Assembly (NCBI GenBank): GCA_042090305.1
Contig: JBELJQ010000005.1
Coordinates: 527 to 64,526 of the forward strand
DNA: 64,000 bases
From: Pelagibacteraceae bacterium
Lineage (GTDB): Bacteria > Pseudomonadota > Alphaproteobacteria > Methylaequorales > Methylaequoraceae
Reading direction: 5' to 3'
Part shown: positions 34,167 through 41,010 of the stretch, piece by piece
How the letters are laid out: each line of letters begins with the position of its first letter
How positions within the stretch are numbered: the stretch's first letter is position 1
Made by a program: the position numbers and the translations under genes
The notes under the pieces: model-generated
Seen by the model: only the letters and a program-made list of their open reading frames with translations
The model's database searches: none
What the model was told of the DNA's origin: nothing

Positions 34167-35010
34167 CGCTCCTTATTTGTTTTATTAAAATATTATTTAA
34201 TATTAATAATCCGATTGAGCTTATTATCACAATATAATCAAGTTTTTCATCGAAAAAAAACAATCCAAGTAAAGTTGCAAATATTAATTTTGAGAATTCA
34301 AATGGCATTAAATTAGTGAGTTGTTCCATGCTCAATGCTTTAGTCCATAAATAATTACCAATAGTAGCAAAAATTGCTATTAGTAATAAATATAAAATAA
34401 CAGTTAGGTTATTTGGATGCACCCATACATATAACGATGGTATTAAAGATATTGGTGTCATTATACAAACCATACTTAACATTAAAGTTAAAACGGACTC
34501 TGTCTTTGATATTTTTTTAACAAGTAGTCCAGCAATAGCATGCATTATAGAAGCTAATAAAGCTATTAAAGCACCTAATTTCAGTTCTAAATCAGGCCTA
34601 ATGAGTACTACAGTCAAAATGAAACCAAGAATAAGTACAGTATTATTTGTTTGAGCAACTCTCTCCTTAAAAAAAAGGATTGCACCAAAATACATAAAAA
34701 GAGGTGTTGTAAAGCTAATCGCCATAGCTTGTGATAAAGGAATTAGGGTGTAAGACCAGAATAAAAGAATCATAGTAATACCACCAAATAAACCTCTTAA
34801 AATAAGAAGTTTAATATTCTGTTTATTTTTGACTAAAACTTTTTGTCGCAAAACAAAGGGTAATATAAACAACAAACTTATAATATTTCTAAAAAAAGCT
34901 TGTTCAAAGGGATGTACTTGATTGGATAAAAACTTAATCAATGCTGCAAGGATTGAAAAAGATAGACAAGATAGTATTATTAGAAAAACGGCATACATTT
35001 TATAATTCAA
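34153..35010 (-). CDS. DMT/EamA transporter
   Basis: AFFRN, LRGLFG, FTTPLF, FFKERV, LIRP, FFDE. Confidence 0.88.
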   Translation of the reverse strand: MNYKMYAVFLIILSCLSFSILAALIKFLSNQVHPFEQAFFRNIISLLFILPFVLRQKVLVKNKQNIKLLILRGLFGGITMILLFWSYTLIPLSQAMAISFTTPLFMYFGAILFFKERVAQTNNTVLILGFILTVVLIRPDLELKLGALIALLASIMHAIAGLLVKKISKTESVLTLMLSMVCIMTPISLIPSLYVWVHPNNLTVILYLLLIAIFATIGNYLWTKALSMEQLTNLMPFEFSKLIFATLLGLFFFDEKLDYIVIISSIGLLILNNILIKQIRSDEKF

Positions 35011-35054
35011 CTATAGTTTCTTGCAATTTAGTTTTAATTATGTCAATAAAAATA

Positions 35055-35561
35055 ATGTTTAATTTTTCTTATCTAACAATTTTAATCACAAGTTTATTAT
35101 TATTCGCAGGGTTGATTGAGTCTAAGGAAATTTCAAAATTTAAGGATTGGTCTTCTTATGCAGAAGGTGAAGGAAAAAATCTTGCATGCATGGCAGTATC
35201 TAAACCAAAAAAGTCAGAGGGTAACTATAAAAGAAGAGGTGATGTTTTTGCTATTATTACTCACTTACCGGGACAAGATAAATTCAATGAGTTCAGTATA
35301 GTTGCTGGTTATAACTTTAAAACAGATAGTAATCCAGAGGCTACAATAGGCGATATGAAGTTTCAATTATTTACATCTGGATCCCGCGCATGGAGTTTTA
35401 GTCCATCAGACGATGAAAAAATTATAAAATATCTTAAATCTTCTATGAAAATGAAGATTGTAGGAACCTCCTCAAGAGGAACAATTACAACAGATACATA
35501 TTCATTAATGGGTTTTAGTAAAGCTTACCAGGCAATAAATGAAGCTTGCAATAAAAAATAA
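35055..35561 (+). CDS. Invasion-associated locus B (IalB)-like periplasmic protein
   Basis: Signal peptide; FKDWSSY, CMAVSKP, GTSSRGTITTDTYSLMGFSKAY, C-terminal Cys. Start moved from 34941. Confidence 0.82.
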   Translation: MFNFSYLTILITSLLLFAGLIESKEISKFKDWSSYAEGEGKNLACMAVSKPKKSEGNYKRRGDVFAIITHLPGQDKFNEFSIVAGYNFKTDSNPEATIGDMKFQLFTSGSRAWSFSPSDDEKIIKYLKSSMKMKIVGTSSRGTITTDTYSLMGFSKAYQAINEACNKK

Positions 35562-35570
35562 TTTAATAAA

Positions 35571-36767
35571 ATGAAAAAAAAAATTGTTTTAGCTTTTTCA
35601 GGTGGTTTAGATACATCAATCATTCTCAAATGGCTCCAAAATGAATACGATGCAGACGTTGTAACTTTTACTGCTGATATTGGTCAAGGAGTAGAAGTTT
35701 CTCAAGCTATCGAAAAAGCAAAGACACTTGGGGTGAAAGAAATCTTTGTTGAAGATCTTCGAGAAGAATTTGTCAATGATTACGTTTTTCCAATATTTAG
35801 GGCAAATACAGTTTATGAGGGATATTATTTGTTAGGAACATCCATAGCTAGACCTTTGATAGCTAAAAAACAAATCGAAATAGCAAGAAACGTTAAAGCT
35901 AAATATGTTTCACATGGTGCTACTGGTAAAGGTAATGATCAAGTAAGATTTGAGCTAGGTTATTATGCAAATAATCCTGCTATAAATGTAATAGCTCCTT
36001 GGAGAGAATGGGATTTGAAGTCTAGAGATCAACTTTTAAACTATGCAATGAAAAATCAAATAGAAATTCCGAAAGATAAATTAAATGAAGCTCCATACTC
36101 AATGGATGCTAACTTGTTGCATACCTCGTATGAAGGAAAAGTGCTCGAGGATCCTTGGTCTGCTCCTGATCAAGATATGTTTCTGAGAACTGTTAGTCCA
36201 AAAAATGCTCCCGACAGAATCACGGAAATCATTTTAGGCTTTAAAGAAGGGGATCCAGTATCTATCAATAAAAAGAATTACTCACCTGCAAATTTGTTGA
36301 CTGAATTAAATAGAGTGGGCGGAGAAAATGGAGTAGGAAGGTTAGATATAGTTGAGAATAGGTATCTAGGAATGAAGTCACGTGGTGTTTACGAAACTCC
36401 TGGAGGTGAAATAATACTTAAAGCACGAAGGGCAATTGAAAGTATAACGTTAGATGGAGAGTCATCTCATTTAAAAGATGAAATTATGCCAAAGTATGCA
36501 AAGTTAGTTTACAACGGATATTGGTTCTCCCCTGAAAGAGAAATGCTCCAGGCTCTTATTGATGAAAGTCAGAAAAGAGTCAATGGATCTGTAAAATTGG
36601 AAATTTATAAAGGTAATGTTGTCGTAGTTGGAAGAAAATCTGATGACTCGCTTTACTCAAAGGATATAGCAACATTCGAGGAAGATGATGTTTTTGACCA
36701 AAAAGATGCAGAAGGCTTTATAAAACTAAATGCTTTAAGATTAAAGATCCTTAAGAATAGAGGATAG
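35571..36767 (+). CDS. argG: Argininosuccinate synthase
   Basis: [50 protein letters not shown]. Confidence 0.98.
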
Positions 36768-37646
36768 GTCGGGTAGTTCCATATCGAATTGTCTATAAGA
36801 TGTAAGAAGAGTATTTAGCAGCAAGCAAGCTATTGTCATCGGACCCACACCTCCTGGCACGGGCGTTATCTTTGATGAGTTTTCTAGACACTTGTTATAA
36901 TCTACATCACCAACAAGTAATTTTTTACCATCCCTTTCTATTCGATTAATGCCAACATCGATCACAATGGCACCTTTTTTTATCCAACTTCCTTTAACCA
37001 TTTCTGGAATCCCTACAGCCGCCACAACAATGTCTGCTTGTTTAACCATTGACTGCAAGTCATTTGTTCTTGAGTGACAAACCGAAACTGTTGCATTCAT
37101 TCCAAGGAGTAATGCAGCCATAGGCTTCCCAACAATATTTGATCTTCCAATAATCACAGCATGTTTTCCTGATAAATCTGGTTCAAGCATTTTCAACATT
37201 ATACTACAACCAAGAGGTGTACATGGTACAAGTGCATCCATTCCAGACCAAAGTTTCCCAACATTCACAGCATGGAATCCATCTACATCTTTTTTGGGAA
37301 GAATGGTATCCAAAACTTTATCTGCATTTATATGTTGGGGAAGGGGCAGTTGTACTAGTATGCCTTGTATTGAATCATCATTATTTAGTTTATTGACTAT
37401 TTTTAGTAATTCTTCCTCAGAGACATCTTCATTAAGTTTATGTTCAACGGAATTAAATCCTACTTCTTTGGTTTTTTCTGTTTTATTTTTGACATATACT
37501 TTACTTGCAGGATTTTCTCCAACTAAAACAACAGCTAATCCAGGAGTTTTTCCTGAACTTTTAATAAGTTGACTTCCAAAATTTTTTATTCTATCACGAA
37601 TCTTGCTAGATACGAGCTTACCATCAATTACTTTATCATCAGACAT
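36741..37646 (-). CDS. folD: Methylene-THF dehydrogenase/cyclohydrolase
   Basis: [49 protein letters not shown]. Confidence 0.98.
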
Positions 37647-37654
37647 ATTTTCTC

Positions 37655-37945
37655 CTACATAAAACCATATTTAGTAATAATAAACTGCAAACCTTCTATC
37701 AATATTATCAATACAACTGGAGCGATATCAATTGAACCAAAATTTGGAGTAAATTTTCTTATAACGCTAAGAACGGGTTCGATCAATCTAAATAAAAAAT
37801 TCATAATTATTGATATAAATTGACTGTTAGTATTGATAATATTAAAGGAAATTAGCATGCTTATTATAACATAAATGATTATTGCATATTTATAAAAATT
37901 TAAGAGTTGAAAAGATATATATAAAAGAAAATCAAAAAAAATCAT
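37655..37945 (-). CDS. yggT: YggT family membrane protein
   Basis: ISMLISFNIIN, LIEPVL, IDIAPVV; conserved position before folD. Confidence 0.9.
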   Translation of the reverse strand: MIFFDFLLYISFQLLNFYKYAIIIYVIISMLISFNIINTNSQFISIIMNFLFRLIEPVLSVIRKFTPNFGSIDIAPVVLIILIEGLQFIITKYGFM

Positions 37946-37962
37946 GATAAAAATTTTATATT

Positions 37963-39339
37963 ATGAAAATGGATAACTATCAAATGAATTTTGAACTAAG
38001 CCGCGCAATAGATTTTCAAAAGAACTTGGATACAGAATTGATGCTAAAAATTGTGGGCGAACTCTTTGATAAGAAAAACCTACTAAACCAAAACTTTTAT
38101 AAACATGCAAATTTTATTATAACTGAGCTGTTTTTTTGTTGGCTTGAGTCAGAAAATCAATTTTTGTCTGTTTCAATGTCAAAAAGAGGATATAGATCCA
38201 AATCAAGGTATAATCCCAGTGAACTATCATCATATAGTATAAAACTGATAAAGTATTTGAAAGATGCAAACTTAATTGACTTTCAAAAAGGTTTTTATGA
38301 TACAAGAACTAAGAGAGGTAGATTATCAAGAATAAGAGCTAATAGCTCTGTCATTAATTATTTTAGAAAGATTAAACTAAAAAATTTATCTAAAATTGAT
38401 CATAAAAAAAGAGAATATGTATATTTCTTTAAAGATAAAAATTACTCAGAATATAGAGATAACTTTAGAACTCACGAATTAAGAGAAATACTTAAAGTTT
38501 ATAATAAAATAATCAAAAAGAATTTTTTCGATATTCCCTGTCACCATGAAAATCAGATAACTAGATACGATAATAAAGAAATAAATTTATCAATTTTGAA
38601 CTCAACGTTAAACTGCTGCTTCTACGACAAACTTGATGAACCTTACATACTAAACGGTTGTTGGTGGAATAAACTTCACGAGTCAAATATTATGAAATAC
38701 AAAAGGAATTTCATTATAAATAATTCTGATACTGGTTATATTGATTTGTTAGAATTTTTTCCCATTTTCTTACTTAAATTTTTTGAAACAAAAATTGACC
38801 TTACTAGTTCATACTCCGACAACTTTAGTTATAATGAAAAATGTAATTTAATTCTTAAATTATTAAGATCCAAGAATCATGAATTTTTTAAAACTTCTAT
38901 CTTGAGAGAAAAAAAGAGATATGGTCTTGGTGATTTTAATAATGAGAATTTAAGAAAAATGTTAAATTTATTTATAGAACAACATGGTCATTTAAGTATA
39001 TATTTAAAAGATAAAAATATTAATTGGGATTCCTTTTGTTCAGAAATTTTTATTGAATTATTAAAAACAAATTTAAATTTCGATAATCCAATTTACTTAT
39101 TAAAAGATAAAATATATTTTTCTGTTAGCCACCAAAAAAGCTTAATTTCAAATTTAGTTAAAATATTAGAAAAAAAGTTTAAGGTTAGGGAAATTTCAAT
39201 TAAGATAGAATTATGTAAGGAATTAAAATCTAATAAAAGTAAATTCTTGAATAGCTTTTTGCGTGTCAAAGAAAATATTGCAGGAAGATATATTAAAAAT
39301 TTAAAAAATTTTGAGAGAAATATTAAAAATGGAAGTTAA
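37963..39339 (+). CDS. Hypothetical protein resembling a degenerate Pol-A/T7-RNAP-like (TV-Pol-type) polymerase with a basic N-terminal region
   Basis: Recalled family pattern: SRYNP, SRI, EYRD...L..YN, G-x-WW, motif-A-like TGYID261, motif-C-like PIYLLKD382KIYF. By-eye match only; start may be 37969 or 37984. Confidence 0.5.
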   Translation: MKMDNYQMNFELSRAIDFQKNLDTELMLKIVGELFDKKNLLNQNFYKHANFIITELFFCWLESENQFLSVSMSKRGYRSKSRYNPSELSSYSIKLIKYLKDANLIDFQKGFYDTRTKRGRLSRIRANSSVINYFRKIKLKNLSKIDHKKREYVYFFKDKNYSEYRDNFRTHELREILKVYNKIIKKNFFDIPCHHENQITRYDNKEINLSILNSTLNCCFYDKLDEPYILNGCWWNKLHESNIMKYKRNFIINNSDTGYIDLLEFFPIFLLKFFETKIDLTSSYSDNFSYNEKCNLILKLLRSKNHEFFKTSILREKKRYGLGDFNNENLRKMLNLFIEQHGHLSIYLKDKNINWDSFCSEIFIELLKTNLNFDNPIYLLKDKIYFSVSHQKSLISNLVKILEKKFKVREISIKIELCKELKSNKSKFLNSFLRVKENIAGRYIKNLKNFERNIKNGS

Positions 39340-39733
39340 AAAATTAGGAATAGACCAACTAAAGTTTTCTAGAGGAAGCAAGATTTACTCCAAAGGAGAG
39401 AAGGCACATTTTGCATATTATGTTCATTCTGGAAAGGTAAATATTTACAGTCCTGGTGGCCTGCTTTTAGGCCAAATTGGAGAAGGGGAAATTTTTGGGG
39501 AAAGAGGACCATCTCTAGATGAGTCAAGGTCAGTATCAGCAGAGGCTTCAACAAATTGTATTCTTTACCCAATAAATGAGAAAACAATAAAAAAAAAAAT
39601 TAAGGAAGCTGACCCTGTTGTTAGAGCAATAATGAGGAGCTTGCTAATTAGGTTGAATGACATAAATATGAAAAGTGAAGATTTTTGGAGAAGTTTAAAT
39701 GTAATGACTTCAATCTCCGAAGATAAAGACTAG
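39329..39733 (+). CDS. Stand-alone cyclic-nucleotide-binding (CNBD) protein without HTH
   Basis: IYSKGE, YYVHSGKV, GEIFGE...RSVSA phosphate-binding cassette, C-helix; 134 aa; overlaps the upstream stop by 11 nt. Confidence 0.88.
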   Translation: MEVKKLGIDQLKFSRGSKIYSKGEKAHFAYYVHSGKVNIYSPGGLLLGQIGEGEIFGERGPSLDESRSVSAEASTNCILYPINEKTIKKKIKEADPVVRAIMRSLLIRLNDINMKSEDFWRSLNVMTSISEDKD

Positions 39734-41010
39734 AGTGTATTCTTTCCTTGCCTGTGCAGGGTGTTTTCTTCACCTTGTACTAAGTTCCAAAATTCTTTCA
39801 TATAGTCATCACCGAATCTACTGATGCTGAACTTTTTATAATCAAATTTTTTAGTGATATTATTTTCGTTCATTATTTCCTCAGCTACTGATTCTCCTAG
39901 GACCGGTGAATATTTCATAGCTTGTCCTGACCCTAGGTTGTGGTAAAGGTTTGAGTATTTTGAGTCTTCACCTAGGATAAATCTCAAATCTGGAGTAATA
40001 TCAAAAAAAGACCGGTAACCGGAAGCATAAACTGTTTTGTCAATGTTAGAGAATCTCTTTTTTGAAATATCTTCGTAGTTTTTTATTTGATTATACGCTA
40101 GTGATTGATTCATAGGCTCATTCAAGTATTCACCACCACTTACAGATGTAAGATCGTTAATAAAATTTTTAGCAATTTCATAAACTGATCTTTTCCTTGG
40201 TTGGTGTGCATGCATTTTATTACCTCTCCATGATCTGAAGTAGCAAAGATTTGTATAGTCTGCAATTATTGGATATTCATATTTTATTTGGCGTGGACTT
40301 TCCATCCAATTAACAACAGATACAGGTTCAATTGTTACTGGAATTTTTAAACCAACTTTTGAGAAAAGTTGTGAGCTCCATGCTCCAGTTGCATTGACGA
40401 AGTTTTTAGCATCGAACTTACCATTATTAGTTGTACAGCTTAGAATTTGATTTCCTTTGAAAATAATAGAGTCAACTTCGGTTTTTTCAAACAAATCTAC
40501 TCCATTTTCATCTATAGCACTATAAAGAGTCGACCTTAATATACTTGGATCTAACTGAAATGCTGCTGGTTCGAAGAAATATGATTCTTGTTCATCTGTT
40601 ATTAAAGTTGTACCACACTTCGATATCGCAGATTTTGAATCAATTTCCTCAAAAGTTAAATTAATCTTTTTCATTCTTTCAGACAAGTTAGTCCAAACAG
40701 GGTTTTCACCTTCTTCGTTCTTTTTGGCTATCCATATGGCGCCAAATTCGTCAAGCTCAATGTCAAGACCCCAAATAGGTGAAAGGTTTTTCCACATTTT
40801 GGTGCTCAGTGAAGCCATCATAGATGCATCTGGATCAGCGTTAGCAGATCTTACAATTCCTGAATGTCTAGATGATTCGGCTGCGCAAAGTACAGCTTTC
40901 TCTATAAGACATACTTTTTCACCCTTACCAACTTTATTGAGTTTTCTCTGAAGAGATACTGCTGTAGCTGCTCCAAGGCATCCCCCACCAATTATTACTG
41001 TATGATACAT
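39730..41010 (-). CDS. FAD-dependent amine oxidoreductase (DAO/sarcosine oxidase beta-like)
   Basis: IIGGGCLG, SRHSGIVR, VNATGAWS, DITPDLRFILG, GQAMKYSP. Confidence 0.85.
   Translation of the reverse strand: MYHTVIIGGGCLGAATAVSLQRKLNKVGKGEKVCLIEKAVLCAAESSRHSGIVRSANADPDASMMASLSTKMWKNLSPIWGLDIELDEFGAIWIAKKNEEGENPVWTNLSERMKKINLTFEEIDSKSAISKCGTTLITDEQESYFFEPAAFQLDPSILRSTLYSAIDENGVDLFEKTEVDSIIFKGNQILSCTTNNGKFDAKNFVNATGAWSSQLFSKVGLKIPVTIEPVSVVNWMESPRQIKYEYPIIADYTNLCYFRSWRGNKMHAHQPRKRSVYEIAKNFINDLTSVSGGEYLNEPMNQSLAYNQIKNYEDISKKRFSNIDKTVYASGYRSFFDITPDLRFILGEDSKYSNLYHNLGSGQAMKYSPVLGESVAEEIMNENNITKKFDYKKFSISRFGDDYMKEFWNLVQGEENTLHRQGKNTL

What the first reader, a model, noticed from the sequence alone, without database searches (positions are those of the whole stretch)
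37963..39339. Orphan protein resembling a domesticated, motif-eroded Pol-A/T7-RNAP-like (TV-Pol-type) polymerase
Seen: a 458-aa soluble protein in a housekeeping region with no integrase, helicase or phage genes nearby. By eye it follows a family of uncharacterised proteobacterial proteins usually found in mobile elements (SRYN..., SRI, EY.D....R..L..YN, GR.YGGWWQ, VEIDY, HDS). Here both putative metal-binding aspartates seem kept (D261 in TGYIDL, D382 in LLKDKIY), but the RxY motif is lost (PYILNGCWW) and HD has become KD. Known: TV-Pol is a minimal superfamily-A polymerase/primase family from mobile elements. Inference: a chromosomally captured derivative with a changed activity (nucleotidyltransferase, nucleic-acid-binding scaffold or regulator).
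Basis: partly seen in the sequence, partly recalled or inferred. Interest (0 to 1): 0.72.

Follow-up and report, generated by a model that had tools for sequence, protein, structure and literature searches.

The report
Dead mobile-element polymerase kept as core gene
A marine bacterial lineage has kept, in every assembled genome, a polymerase-like gene once captured from a mobile element; it has lost nearly all polymerase catalytic residues but keeps its N-terminal, probably DNA-binding, domain and always sits directly upstream of a small cyclic-nucleotide sensor gene.

Summary
It is not an orphan. More than 80 full-length orthologues exist, one copy per genome, in 9 of 9 high-quality genomes of one order of small, AT-rich marine Alphaproteobacteria. 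The position is always yggT(-) | X(+) | cNMP-binding gene(+) | DAO oxidoreductase(-).

X aligns over its full length (hhalign E 1e-58) with a mobile-element family carrying family-A polymerase motifs (GGRFYGGWWQ, E.DYSGLH, R...K, IHDS). That family sits beside integrases and resolvases, and its profile hits the published phage divPolA2 (E 9e-26). A confident AlphaFold model (pLDDT 86) matches family-A DNA polymerases in the PDB and divPolA2-type phage proteins over its whole length.

In X's family the hairpin Arg, RxxxK, the fingers Asp and the His of HD are gone. The motif-A Asp is N or S in 28% of orthologues. All conserved N-terminal positions are kept, and dN/dS is 0.2.

My verdict is an exapted, almost certainly non-polymerising protein that most likely binds nucleic acid, possibly working with the adjacent cNMP receptor. 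It is a new variant of a known kind, and its function is untested.

The parts
37963..39339 (+). Gene X: 458-aa degenerate family-A-type polymerase homologue, an exapted derivative of a mobile-element divPolA2/TV-Pol-like polymerase
   Evidence: ORF. 86 close homologues. hhalign to the mobile-element family at E 1.2e-58 over the full length. AF2 model with pLDDT 86 and pTM 0.87. Foldseek hits to family-A polymerases and divPolA2-type phage proteins. dN/dS 0.20-0.23.
38089..38367 (+). Residues 43-135: the most conserved block (SMSKRGY..SRYNP..ISS, GF.D, R..RI); probable winged-helix-like nucleic-acid-binding domain shared with the active mobile-element polymerases
   Evidence: 25 of the 37 sites conserved in at least 98% of orthologues lie here. 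Every position conserved in the mobile-element family in this region is kept at about 100%. The Foldseek hit list for the isolated N-terminal model is almost all MarR/PadR/GntR winged-helix regulators, but the matches are weak (best E 0.014, model pLDDT 68).
38641..38667 (+). Residues 227-235 (PYILNGCWW): remnant of the GGRFYGGWWQ hairpin; the conserved Arg is lost and G.WW is kept
   Evidence: Joint alignment: the mobile-element family's R261 (97%) corresponds to I/K/L/S in X's family, while G232, W234 and W235 are invariant.
38731..38748 (+). Residues 257-262 (TGYIDL): remnant of polymerase motif A at the end of a beta strand; D261 is present here but not conserved
   Evidence: Strand E257-261 in the model. 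The motif E.DYSGLH maps to T.Y.DL. D261 is D58/N17/S6/E1 of 82 orthologues.
38830..38868 (+). Residues 290-302: helix corresponding to the O-helix (motif B); RxxxK is lost
   Evidence: The mobile-element family's R328 (99%) maps to Y/F/N/I, K332 (100%) to C/N/Y/F, and N340 (99%) to R/N/K. Helix H290-302 in the model.
39091..39123 (+). Residues 377-387 (IYLLKDKIYFS): remnant of the motif C beta hairpin; HDS has become KDK
   Evidence: Strands E377-380 and E383-387 in the model. H421 maps to K/R/Q, D422 to D64/E14/S3/N1, and S423 to K.
39329..39733 (+). Downstream partner gene: stand-alone 134-aa cyclic-nucleotide-binding-domain protein; its ATG overlaps the end of X by 11 nt
   Evidence: PF00027 at E 1.6e-14. 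Junction sequence. The gap between X's stop and this gene's start is about -11 to +20 nt in all 14 resolvable orthologous loci. 76-98% identical across genera. dN/dS is 0 at dS 0.40. The orthologue is restricted to the same order.
39746..39761 (+). Terminator-like hairpin just after the cNMP gene; possible 3' end of a two-gene transcription unit
   Evidence: Consensus scan only. There is no transcript evidence.

Best explanation
Gene X descends from a family-A-type (Pol I / T7 RNAP-like) polymerase that is carried by integrating mobile elements and some phages (divPolA2 / TV-Pol-like).

One copy was captured between yggT and a cNMP-binding gene in the ancestor of this order of streamlined marine Alphaproteobacteria. 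It has been inherited vertically ever since as a single-copy core gene.

On the stem branch it lost the residues that bind the primer terminus, the incoming nucleotide and, in many species, the catalytic metal. It therefore no longer polymerises. This is inferred from sequence and has not been assayed.

It kept the right-hand architecture and every conserved residue of the N-terminal, probably winged-helix-like, domain that it shares with the active enzymes.

The most likely present function is non-catalytic binding of DNA or RNA through that domain and the former polymerase cleft. X is encoded immediately upstream of, and probably co-transcribed and translationally coupled with, an extremely conserved stand-alone cyclic-nucleotide receptor. 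A working hypothesis follows: the two form a cNMP-responsive nucleic-acid-binding pair, with the receptor as sensor and X as output.

Shown: homology, fold, loss of motifs, single origin, synteny and purifying selection. Inferred: loss of activity, nucleic-acid binding, co-transcription and the partnership with the receptor.
For: Homology and fold:
- hhalign of X's family against the motif-bearing family gives probability 100 and E 1.2e-58 over 448 columns.
- The AF2 model has pLDDT 86 and pTM 0.87.
- The PDB hits at ranks 1-17 are all family-A DNA polymerases; the top 13 have probability 0.85-1.0 and E from 2e-4.
- In BFVD, 11 phage proteins of 400-450 aa match across alignments of 430-480 columns at E 1e-15 to 2.5e-10 and TM 0.41-0.62. 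They include the Rheinheimera Barba31A 'DNA polymerase'. Barbaviruses are where divPolA2 was first identified (PMC11348598).
- The mobile-element profile hits the divPolA2 type protein AUR84708 at E 8.6e-26.

Mobile ancestry:
- Relatives lie next to a resolvase, and next to an IS110 transposase and integrases.
- In the fetched loci, one integrase cluster recurs in 21 loci, a resolvase cluster in 6 and a second integrase cluster in 4, all within 3.5 kb.
- Relatives are multi-copy and often sit on very small contigs.
- They occur in only 17 of about 297 other alphaproteobacterial genomes.

Capture and fixation:
- The family is one clade with 100% support on a stem of about 1.8 substitutions per site.
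- It is present in 22 of 24 genomes of the family and in 9 of 9 high-quality genomes of the order, always as a single copy.
- The genomes without a match lack the whole locus.
- Gene order is identical in 15 loci from different species.

Loss of catalysis and retention of the N-terminal domain:
- The mobile-element profile matches X only over profile positions 6-263.

Functional gene:
- dN/dS is 0.20-0.23, against 0.06-0.08 for argG and folD.

Partner gene:
- The genome has its own class III cyclases and 8 cNMP-binding proteins.
- It also has a canonical polA, so X is needed neither as the signal maker nor as Pol I.
Against:
- This particular protein and its genus keep both aspartates, so residual or altered nucleotidyl transfer in some members is not excluded.
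- Support for the winged-helix assignment of the N-terminal domain is weak (E at least 0.014, on a model with pLDDT 68).
- The link to the cNMP receptor rests only on conserved adjacency. Because both genes are present in every genome, there is no co-loss or co-gain signal.
- The one apparent fusion (L026) is an artefact of N bases.
- X evolves about three times faster than its neighbours, which could also indicate a marginal or conflict-driven role.
Confidence: 0.6

Rival explanations
1. X is still an enzyme: a polymerase, primase or other nucleotidyltransferase with an unconventional active site. It would use D382/E together with family-specific acidic residues (for example position 239, which is D in 79 of 82 orthologues, or E316).
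For: The window protein keeps D261 and D382 on the expected strand end and hairpin turn. Position 382 is acidic in 78 of 82 orthologues. The right-hand fold is preserved with high model confidence throughout the palm and fingers.
Against: The hairpin Arg, R and K of RxxxK, the fingers Asp and the His of HD are absent in essentially all orthologues. The motif A Asp is N or S in 23 of 82. The palm and fingers are the least conserved parts of the protein. The genome has a normal polA.
Confidence: 0.12
2. X makes a nucleotide second messenger (cyclic or linear) that the adjacent cNMP-binding protein senses. The pair would then be a self-contained signalling module built from a palm-domain enzyme.
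For: The two genes are tightly and universally adjacent. Palm-domain enzymes elsewhere (GGDEF, Cas10) make cyclic nucleotides; that point is my own knowledge. An earlier first-reader note on the same stretch proposed this idea (e1-5238003).
Against: The catalytic and nucleotide-binding residues are not conserved. The genome already has two class III cyclases and eight cNMP-binding proteins, so a dedicated maker is unnecessary. No cNMP-binding gene accompanies the active mobile-element relatives.
Confidence: 0.08
3. X is a dominant-negative decoy against related mobile elements. As a dead polymerase that still recognises their origin or priming site through the conserved N-terminal domain, it would block their replication.
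For: The domain shared with active element polymerases is retained selectively while catalysis is lost. Evolution is faster than in the neighbours (dN/dS 0.2 against 0.07; 31-49% identity between genera against 64-95% for the neighbouring housekeeping genes). Related elements are common in co-occurring marine Rhodobacteraceae, SAR116 and Porticoccaceae.
Against: There is no match to any PADLOC defence model. X lies in a housekeeping neighbourhood rather than a defence island, and its position is perfectly stable. No active element of this family was found in the genomes of the order. The fastest-evolving parts are the dead palm and fingers, not the putative recognition domain.
Confidence: 0.1
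4. X has no protein-level function of its own. It would be a relic kept open only because transcription or translation of the essential downstream cNMP gene runs through it.
For: The stop and start overlap, or are separated by a very short gap, in all loci. There is very little intergenic space upstream (16-36 nt). Constraint is relaxed relative to the neighbours.
Against: 36 residues are invariant across sequences down to about 32% identity. dN/dS is 0.2. The full-length ORF is intact in every well-assembled genome over at least 14 genera. Conservation follows the same N-terminal positions as in the active family.
Confidence: 0.05

Closest known systems
divPolA2, a divergent family-A polymerase of barbaviruses and Vibrio/Aeromonas phages (Yutin et al., Virol J 2024, PMC11348598)
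   Same: Both are about 430-460 aa with no exonuclease domain. Both have an N-terminal globular domain in place of a canonical thumb, followed by palm and fingers. The X model matches such phage proteins at TM 0.41-0.62 across alignments of 430-480 columns. The sister mobile-element family of X hits the divPolA2 type protein AUR84708 at E 8.6e-26.
   Different: divPolA2 is described as having an active palm with motifs A, B and C intact. It is phage-borne, has variable neighbourhoods and is sometimes multi-copy. X has lost those motifs and is chromosomal, single-copy and syntenic. X's own profile does not detect AUR84708 (E 0.09).
TV-Pol family (Iyer, Abhiman and Aravind, Biol Direct 2008, PMC2579912)
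   Same: The mobile-element relatives of X show the defining pattern described there: a conserved Arg before the palm, two Asp, RxxxK plus an Asp in the fingers, linkage to resolvases or integrases, and occurrence in marine Rhodobacterales and related bacteria.
   Different: No direct sequence link to a named TV-Pol member was obtained; the profile search of Ma-LMM01 found nothing. X itself lacks the catalytic signature and the mobile context.
Bacterial DNA polymerase I / apicoplast Pol (family A; PDB 9cay, 7sxq, 8jrb, 4ez6)
   Same: Right-hand palm and fingers fold (Foldseek probability 0.95-1.0).
   Different: TM is only about 0.2-0.28. X has no exonuclease domain, a different N-terminal domain and no conserved motifs A, B or C. 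PF00476 does not match X, and the genome has its own 936-aa polA.
TldR, TnpB-like nuclease-dead repressors (PMC10705468); an analogy, not a homologue
   Same: An enzyme encoded by a mobile element is domesticated by the host after losing its catalytic residues while keeping nucleic-acid binding.
   Different: Unrelated fold and mechanism. TldR function is shown experimentally, whereas X's is not.

Membership tests
Family-A polymerase superfamily (Pol I / T7 RNAP-like right hand) | Palm and fingers fold of family-A polymerases | tested here: met
   The PDB Foldseek hits at ranks 1-17 are all family-A DNA polymerases (top E 2.3e-4; top 13 with probability 0.85-1.0). The model has pLDDT 86.
Family-A polymerase superfamily (Pol I / T7 RNAP-like right hand) | Invariant motif A aspartate at the end of the first palm strand | tested here: not met
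   D261 is D58/N17/S6/E1 of 82 orthologues. It is 100% D in the mobile-element sister family.
Family-A polymerase superfamily (Pol I / T7 RNAP-like right hand) | Motif C HD(E/S) hairpin with an invariant Asp | tested here: inconclusive
   D382 is D64/E14/S3/N1 of 82 orthologues. The preceding His is replaced by K/R/Q and the following Ser by K.
Family-A polymerase superfamily (Pol I / T7 RNAP-like right hand) | O-helix RxxxK (motif B) that binds the incoming nucleotide | tested here: not met
   R328 maps to Y/F/N/I and K332 to C/N/Y/F. hhalign gives the same mapping.
Family-A polymerase superfamily (Pol I / T7 RNAP-like right hand) | Conserved Arg of the pre-palm hairpin (TGRLSS in Pol I, GGRFYG in the sister family) | tested here: not met
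   R261 of the sister family (97%) corresponds to I/K/L/S in X's family.
TV-Pol (Iyer et al. 2008) | Detectable sequence relationship to named TV-Pol members | tested here: inconclusive
   The sister-family profile found nothing in the Ma-LMM01 genome at E up to 1. No other named member was available. The paper's species list overlaps the taxa where the sister family occurs.
TV-Pol (Iyer et al. 2008) | Residence in mobile elements or viruses, linked to a D5-like helicase, resolvase, integrase or transposase | tested here: not met
   X lies between yggT and a cNMP-binding gene in a housekeeping block that is identical in 15 loci. The feature is met for the sister family.
divPolA2 (Yutin et al. 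2024) | Architecture: novel N-terminal globular domain plus palm and fingers, with no exonuclease and no canonical thumb | tested here: met
   Foldseek matches to phage proteins of 400-450 aa, including one from a barbavirus, across alignments of 430-480 columns at TM 0.41-0.62 and E down to 1e-15. The architecture is described.
divPolA2 (Yutin et al. 2024) | Intact catalytic palm (motifs A, B, C) | tested here: not met
divPolA2 (Yutin et al. 2024) | Sequence-profile relationship to the type protein AUR84708 | tested here: inconclusive
   The direct comparison of the X-family profile with AUR84708 gives E 0.09. The transitive link is strong: X family to sister family at E 1e-58, and sister family to AUR84708 at E 8.6e-26.

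The most novel reading that the evidence does not exclude
X and the adjacent stand-alone cNMP-binding protein form a two-subunit, cyclic-nucleotide-responsive regulator. It would resemble a split CRP, with the DNA- or RNA-binding subunit being a catalytically dead polymerase domesticated from a mobile element. This would be a new class of bacterial regulator in a lineage with very few conventional transcription factors.
Probability: 0.22. Interest if true: 0.8.

Novelty: new variant of a known kind. Interest (0 to 1): 0.6.

Why it matters
Inactivated polymerase homologues kept as structural or regulatory proteins are known for family B polymerases in eukaryotes and archaea; that statement rests on my own knowledge. 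I found no paper describing a family-A-type polymerase from a mobile element fixed as a catalytically degenerate core gene of a bacterial order.

The case gives a clean natural experiment. The N-terminal domain is the part selection preserves when polymerase chemistry is discarded, and the divPolA2 paper could not assign that domain. This points to the N-terminal domain as an autonomous nucleic-acid-recognition module.

The finding also flags an unannotated family. At least 522 loci in reference genomes have no Pfam or NCBIfam model. It further identifies a lineage-specific gene pair with a cyclic-nucleotide receptor in an abundant, hard-to-culture group of ocean bacteria.

Tried and rejected
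- Direct sequence searches of X against Pfam, NCBIfam, PHROGs, PADLOC and PDB sequences found nothing meaningful. Scanning every member of both alignments against Pfam gave no recurrent family.
- tblastn of X against 50,697 phage records found no match.
- A profile of the sister family against PDB sequences found nothing.
- An apparent X-cNMP fusion ORF of 608 aa in L026 was rejected. The locus contains N bases that mask stop codons.
- An apparent pseudogene of X in G001 (21 stops) was rejected as evidence of loss. The same contig has frameshifts in argG, both EamA genes, pabC, ccmF and the cNMP gene, so these are assembly errors.
- Three genomes without X also lack the cNMP gene, so the whole locus is unassembled and the gene has not been lost.
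- I tested whether the 107-aa ORF upstream of one mobile-element homologue equals the N-terminal extension of longer homologues, as the TV-Pol paper describes. There was no similarity.
- The TV-Pol paper's supplement holds no usable accession list.
- A search for a cNMP-binding gene next to mobile-element relatives found none in 82 loci.
- The isolated N-terminal domain model was only moderately confident (pLDDT 68), and its winged-helix hits are not significant.
- Earlier-findings look-ups by sequence and by words returned nothing.
Full report
**1. The observation**

The window has an ORF at 37963-39339 on the + strand that encodes 458 aa.
- PYILNGCWW at residues 227-235
- D261 in TGYIDL
- K381-D382 in LLKDKIY

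The region is about 25-30% G+C, like its surroundings. The neighbours are housekeeping genes:
- argG (35571-36767)
- folD (36741-37646, minus strand)
- yggT (37655-37945, minus strand)
- a cNMP-binding-domain protein (39329-39733)
- a DAO-type FAD oxidoreductase (39730-41010, minus strand)
- pabB/pabC-like genes
- cytochrome c maturation genes (Pfam calls on an orthologous contig)

X itself hits nothing in Pfam, NCBIfam, PHROGs, PADLOC or PDB sequences.

**2. It is not an orphan but a core gene of one bacterial order**

A word-indexed search found 86 homologues. Nearly all are 450-480 aa and come from marine metagenome-assembled genomes.

In whole genomes, X is present once in 22 of 24 genomes of the window's family. 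It is absent from the 16 genomes sampled from other alphaproteobacterial families. The order holds only this one family. All 9 genomes that are at least 90% complete have X, and so do 11 of 11 genera.

The three genomes without a match also lack the neighbouring cNMP gene, so the locus is simply unassembled there. One apparent pseudogene, in G001, sits on a contig where argG, pabC, ccmF and other genes are frameshifted as well. That is an assembly artefact.

In 15 loci from different species the gene order is identical: aldo-keto reductase, EamA, EamA, IalB-like, argG, folD(-), yggT(-), X(+), cNMP(+), DAO(-), pabB, pabC, ccm. DAO is missing in one locus and pabC in another.

X is by far the fastest-evolving member of the block. 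It shows 31-49% identity between genera, against 64-95% for the neighbouring housekeeping genes argG, folD, DAO and the cNMP gene.

For three close relatives (83-88% amino-acid identity), dN/dS values are:
- X: 0.20-0.23
- argG and folD: 0.06-0.08
- cNMP gene: 0.00 at dS 0.40

X is therefore a functional protein-coding gene under purifying but relaxed selection.

**3. Where it comes from**

An exhaustive HMMER scan of 1.84 billion representatives found 295 clusters at E up to 1e-3.
- SRYNA
- SRI
- EY.D..T..MR..L..YN
- FIDIP
- GGRFYGGWWQ
- E(V/L)DYSGLH
- R...K.L.L.AINA
- (I/V)HDS(F/Y)IV

Profile-profile comparison of X's family (alignment A1) with this family (alignment A2) gives probability 100 and E 1.2e-58 over 448 columns.

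The A2 family behaves like mobile-element cargo:
- One member lies next to a serine resolvase.
- Another lies next to an IS110 transposase and two tyrosine integrases.
- Among the fetched genome loci, one Pfam-confirmed integrase cluster recurs in 21 loci, a resolvase cluster in 6 and a second integrase cluster in 4, all within 3.5 kb.
- Copies are often multiple per genome or sit on contigs of 1.5-4 kb.
- Hosts are mainly marine Rhodobacteraceae, SAR116 and Porticoccaceae.
- In a sample of about 297 near-complete alphaproteobacterial genomes outside the window's family, only 17 carry it, some as fragments or in 2-4 copies.

On a maximum-likelihood tree of 25 X-type and 78 A2-type proteins, X's family is one side of a single branch. 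Support is 100% (SH-aLRT) and the branch length is about 1.8 substitutions per site. This indicates one capture followed by rapid change.

**4. The fold**

AlphaFold2 with the orthologue alignment gave a confident model (pLDDT 86.2, pTM 0.87).

Against the PDB, the Foldseek hits at ranks 1-17 are all family-A DNA polymerases. They include the Plasmodium apicoplast Pol, Aquifex Pol I, a Taq-derived variant, phage G20c Pol I and Bst Pol I. The top 13 have probability 0.85-1.0 and E from 2.3e-4. TM scores are low, about 0.2-0.28.

Against predicted viral structures, 11 phage proteins of 400-450 aa match across alignments of 430-480 columns, at E 1e-15 to 2.5e-10 and TM 0.41-0.62. They include the 'DNA polymerase' of Rheinheimera phage Barba31A and proteins of Aeromonas phages 4L372D and 2L372X.

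Barbaviruses (Rheinheimera phage Barba18A and relatives) are where Yutin et al. (2024) first identified divPolA2. They describe it as an active palm and fingers without an exonuclease or a canonical thumb, preceded by an N-terminal globular domain of unknown affinity (PMC11348598).

Consistent with this, an A2 member hits hypothetical proteins in 72 Vibrio, Aeromonas, Shewanella, Pseudoalteromonas and other phage records by tblastn, including the two Aeromonas phages above. The A2 profile also hits the paper's type protein AUR84708 of Vibrio phage 1.063.O at E 8.6e-26.

The same profile finds nothing in Microcystis phage Ma-LMM01, a named carrier of TV-Pol. X's own profile does not detect AUR84708.

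I therefore treat divPolA2 as the closest documented relative. TV-Pol (PMC2579912) is a family with the same diagnostic pattern and ecology, but strict inclusion of A2 in it is unproven here.

**5. What was kept and what was lost**

I built a joint alignment of 79 X-type and 78 A2-type proteins.

Seventeen positions that are at least 85% conserved in A2 lie in the N-terminal half, from L65 to N208 in A2 numbering. X's family keeps 14 of them at 92-100% and one (R174) at 76%. One (M1) is the start codon, and one (L166) has become variable.

Almost every conserved position of the polymerase core is replaced or variable:

| Position in A2 family (conservation) | What X's family has |
|---|---|
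| R249 | Y/C/F/L |
| G259-G260-R261 (pre-palm hairpin Arg) | variable |
| R275 | K/S/Q |
| E287 | Y/F/H |
| D289 (motif A, 100%) | D58/N14/S6/E1 of 79 |
| H294 | F/L |
| R328 and K332 (RxxxK, 99-100%) | Y/F/N/I and C/N/Y/F |
| N340 | R/N/K |
| D399 (fingers) | V/I/L/C |
| H421-D422-S423 | K/R/Q, then D61/E14/S3/N1, then K |

Only G.WW survives intact.

In the 82-sequence alignment the counts are D261 = D58/N17/S6/E1 and D382 = D64/E14/S3/N1. By contrast R75, R82, N84, D113, R120, R123, E151, D166, N181, D190, G232, W234, W235 and N253 are 82 of 82.

By region, residues 43-135 hold 25 of the 37 sites conserved in at least 98% of orthologues. The fingers (290-372) hold one, and the palm helix and C-terminus hold none. 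The A2 profile aligns to X only over profile positions 6-263.

In the model, D261 ends strand 257-261 and D382 sits in the turn between strands 377-380 and 383-387. That is the topology expected for motifs A and C. I could not measure distances because coordinates are not exposed.

The conclusion is that selection maintains the N-terminal domain and the overall scaffold, not polymerase chemistry.

The genome also has a canonical 936-aa polA.

**6. The N-terminal domain**

Modelled alone (residues 1-195), the domain is only moderately confident (pLDDT 68). This suggests it packs against the rest of the protein.

Its Foldseek hit list is made up almost entirely of winged-helix regulators (MarR, TcaR, SlyA, PadR/LmrR, GntR-type). 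E-values are 0.014-0.4 and TM normalised to the target is 0.3-0.44. The full-length model also drew a few winged-helix hits at E of about 1-2.

This is a consistent but statistically weak indication of a winged-helix-like, nucleic-acid-binding module. The protein is basic (pI 9.6), which is unremarkable in an AT-rich genome.

**7. The downstream gene**

The cNMP-binding gene's ATG (39329) lies inside the last codons of X, an 11-nt overlap reading ATGGAAGTTAA. In 14 other loci where the junction can be resolved, the distance between X's stop and the cNMP start ranges from about -11 to +20 nt. A terminator-like hairpin follows the cNMP gene.

The 134-aa product is a bare cyclic-nucleotide-binding domain (PF00027, E 1.6e-14). 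Its FGE...RS phosphate-binding cassette is intact; this is read directly from the sequence and interpreted from my knowledge of CRP.

The protein is 76-98% identical across genera. Its orthologue, like X, is confined to this order; elsewhere there are only generic 30-36% domain matches. No cNMP-binding gene accompanies the mobile-element relatives, so the pairing arose in this lineage.

The genome has two class III nucleotide cyclases and eight cNMP-binding proteins, five of them small open frames of 126-155 aa. A cNMP network therefore exists independently of X.

An earlier first-reader note on this stretch (e1-5238003) proposed a signalling pair in which the polymerase-like protein makes the signal. 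The adjacency is confirmed, but the erosion of the active site makes X an unlikely signal maker.

**8. Interpretation**

The best-supported reading is an exapted, non-polymerising derivative of a mobile-element family-A-type polymerase. It now acts through nucleic-acid binding and is possibly controlled by, or controls, the co-encoded cNMP receptor.

My confidence in the separate parts of this reading:

| Claim | Confidence |
|---|---|
| Evolutionary and structural identity | about 0.85 |
| Loss of canonical polymerase activity | about 0.75 |
| Nucleic-acid-binding role | about 0.5 |
| Partnership with the receptor | about 0.25-0.35 |

The rivals, scored in the report sections, are:
- residual or altered enzymatic activity
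- synthesis of a second messenger
- a decoy against related mobile elements
- a relic kept only for expression of the downstream gene

**9. Novelty**

No Pfam or NCBIfam model covers either family. The papers found on TV-Pol and divPolA2 describe only active, mobile or viral members. A search for inactivated family-A polymerases exapted from mobile elements found no such case.

The phenomenon is an enzyme from a mobile element domesticated after catalytic death. It has precedents such as TnpB-derived TldR repressors (PMC10705468). I therefore class this as a new variant of a known kind rather than something categorically new.

Noticed in passing
window 37946-37962 and the orthologous loci L013-L028: The start codons of divergent yggT and X are only 16-36 nt apart. 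A TATAAT-like box (TTTTATAAT, TTTATATT or TTTATAGT) abuts X's ATG directly in most genera, and there is no Shine-Dalgarno sequence. X's promoter must lie inside yggT, or the annotated start is not the real one. The window protein has a second ATG at codon 3, and one cluster representative starts there.
   Followed up: partly
G000 contig C16:2385-21499 (L122, L123): A cyclic-nucleotide signalling cluster: two class III cyclase-domain proteins (open frames of 765 and 791 aa), two small cNMP-binding open frames (146 and 155 aa) and one of 574 aa, all within about 20 kb. That makes eight cNMP-binding proteins in a 1.5-Mb genome, a rich set for a streamlined organism.
   Followed up: no
L031-L110 (genome contigs) and proteins P0099-P0233: The motif-intact mobile-element polymerase family has at least 522 loci in reference genomes. 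It is linked to integrases and resolvases and has no Pfam, NCBIfam or PHROG model. Five residues after the motif A Asp, where Pol I has its steric-gate Glu (my recollection), it has a 94%-conserved His (DYSGLH, reminiscent of T7 RNAP). This hints at RNA polymerase or primase chemistry.
   Followed up: partly
L027 (G001:C24:415000-428200): This 745-kb contig has frameshifts in many otherwise conserved genes (argG, EamA x2, pabC, ccmF, X and the cNMP gene). They are probably uncorrected indel errors, so apparent pseudogenes in this genome should not be trusted.
   Followed up: yes
L026 (G018:C20:69400-80128): Scattered N bases in this MAG contig mask stop codons and create a false 608-aa fusion of X with the cNMP-binding protein.
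   Followed up: yes
window 39730-39733: The convergent cNMP-binding gene (+) and DAO oxidoreductase gene (-) overlap by 4 nt at their stop codons. The terminator-like hairpin at 39746-39761 lies inside the 3' end of the DAO coding sequence.
   Followed up: no
window 34941-35561: The 206-aa ORF upstream of argG corresponds to an IalB-family (PF06776) protein in the orthologous locus L111. There the called gene is shorter (173 aa), so the window ORF's start is probably over-extended into the EamA gene.
   Followed up: no
G000:C40:184-498: A second stand-alone cNMP-binding protein, 33% identical to the one next to X. A counterpart exists in G015 about 26 kb from that genome's X locus.
   Followed up: no
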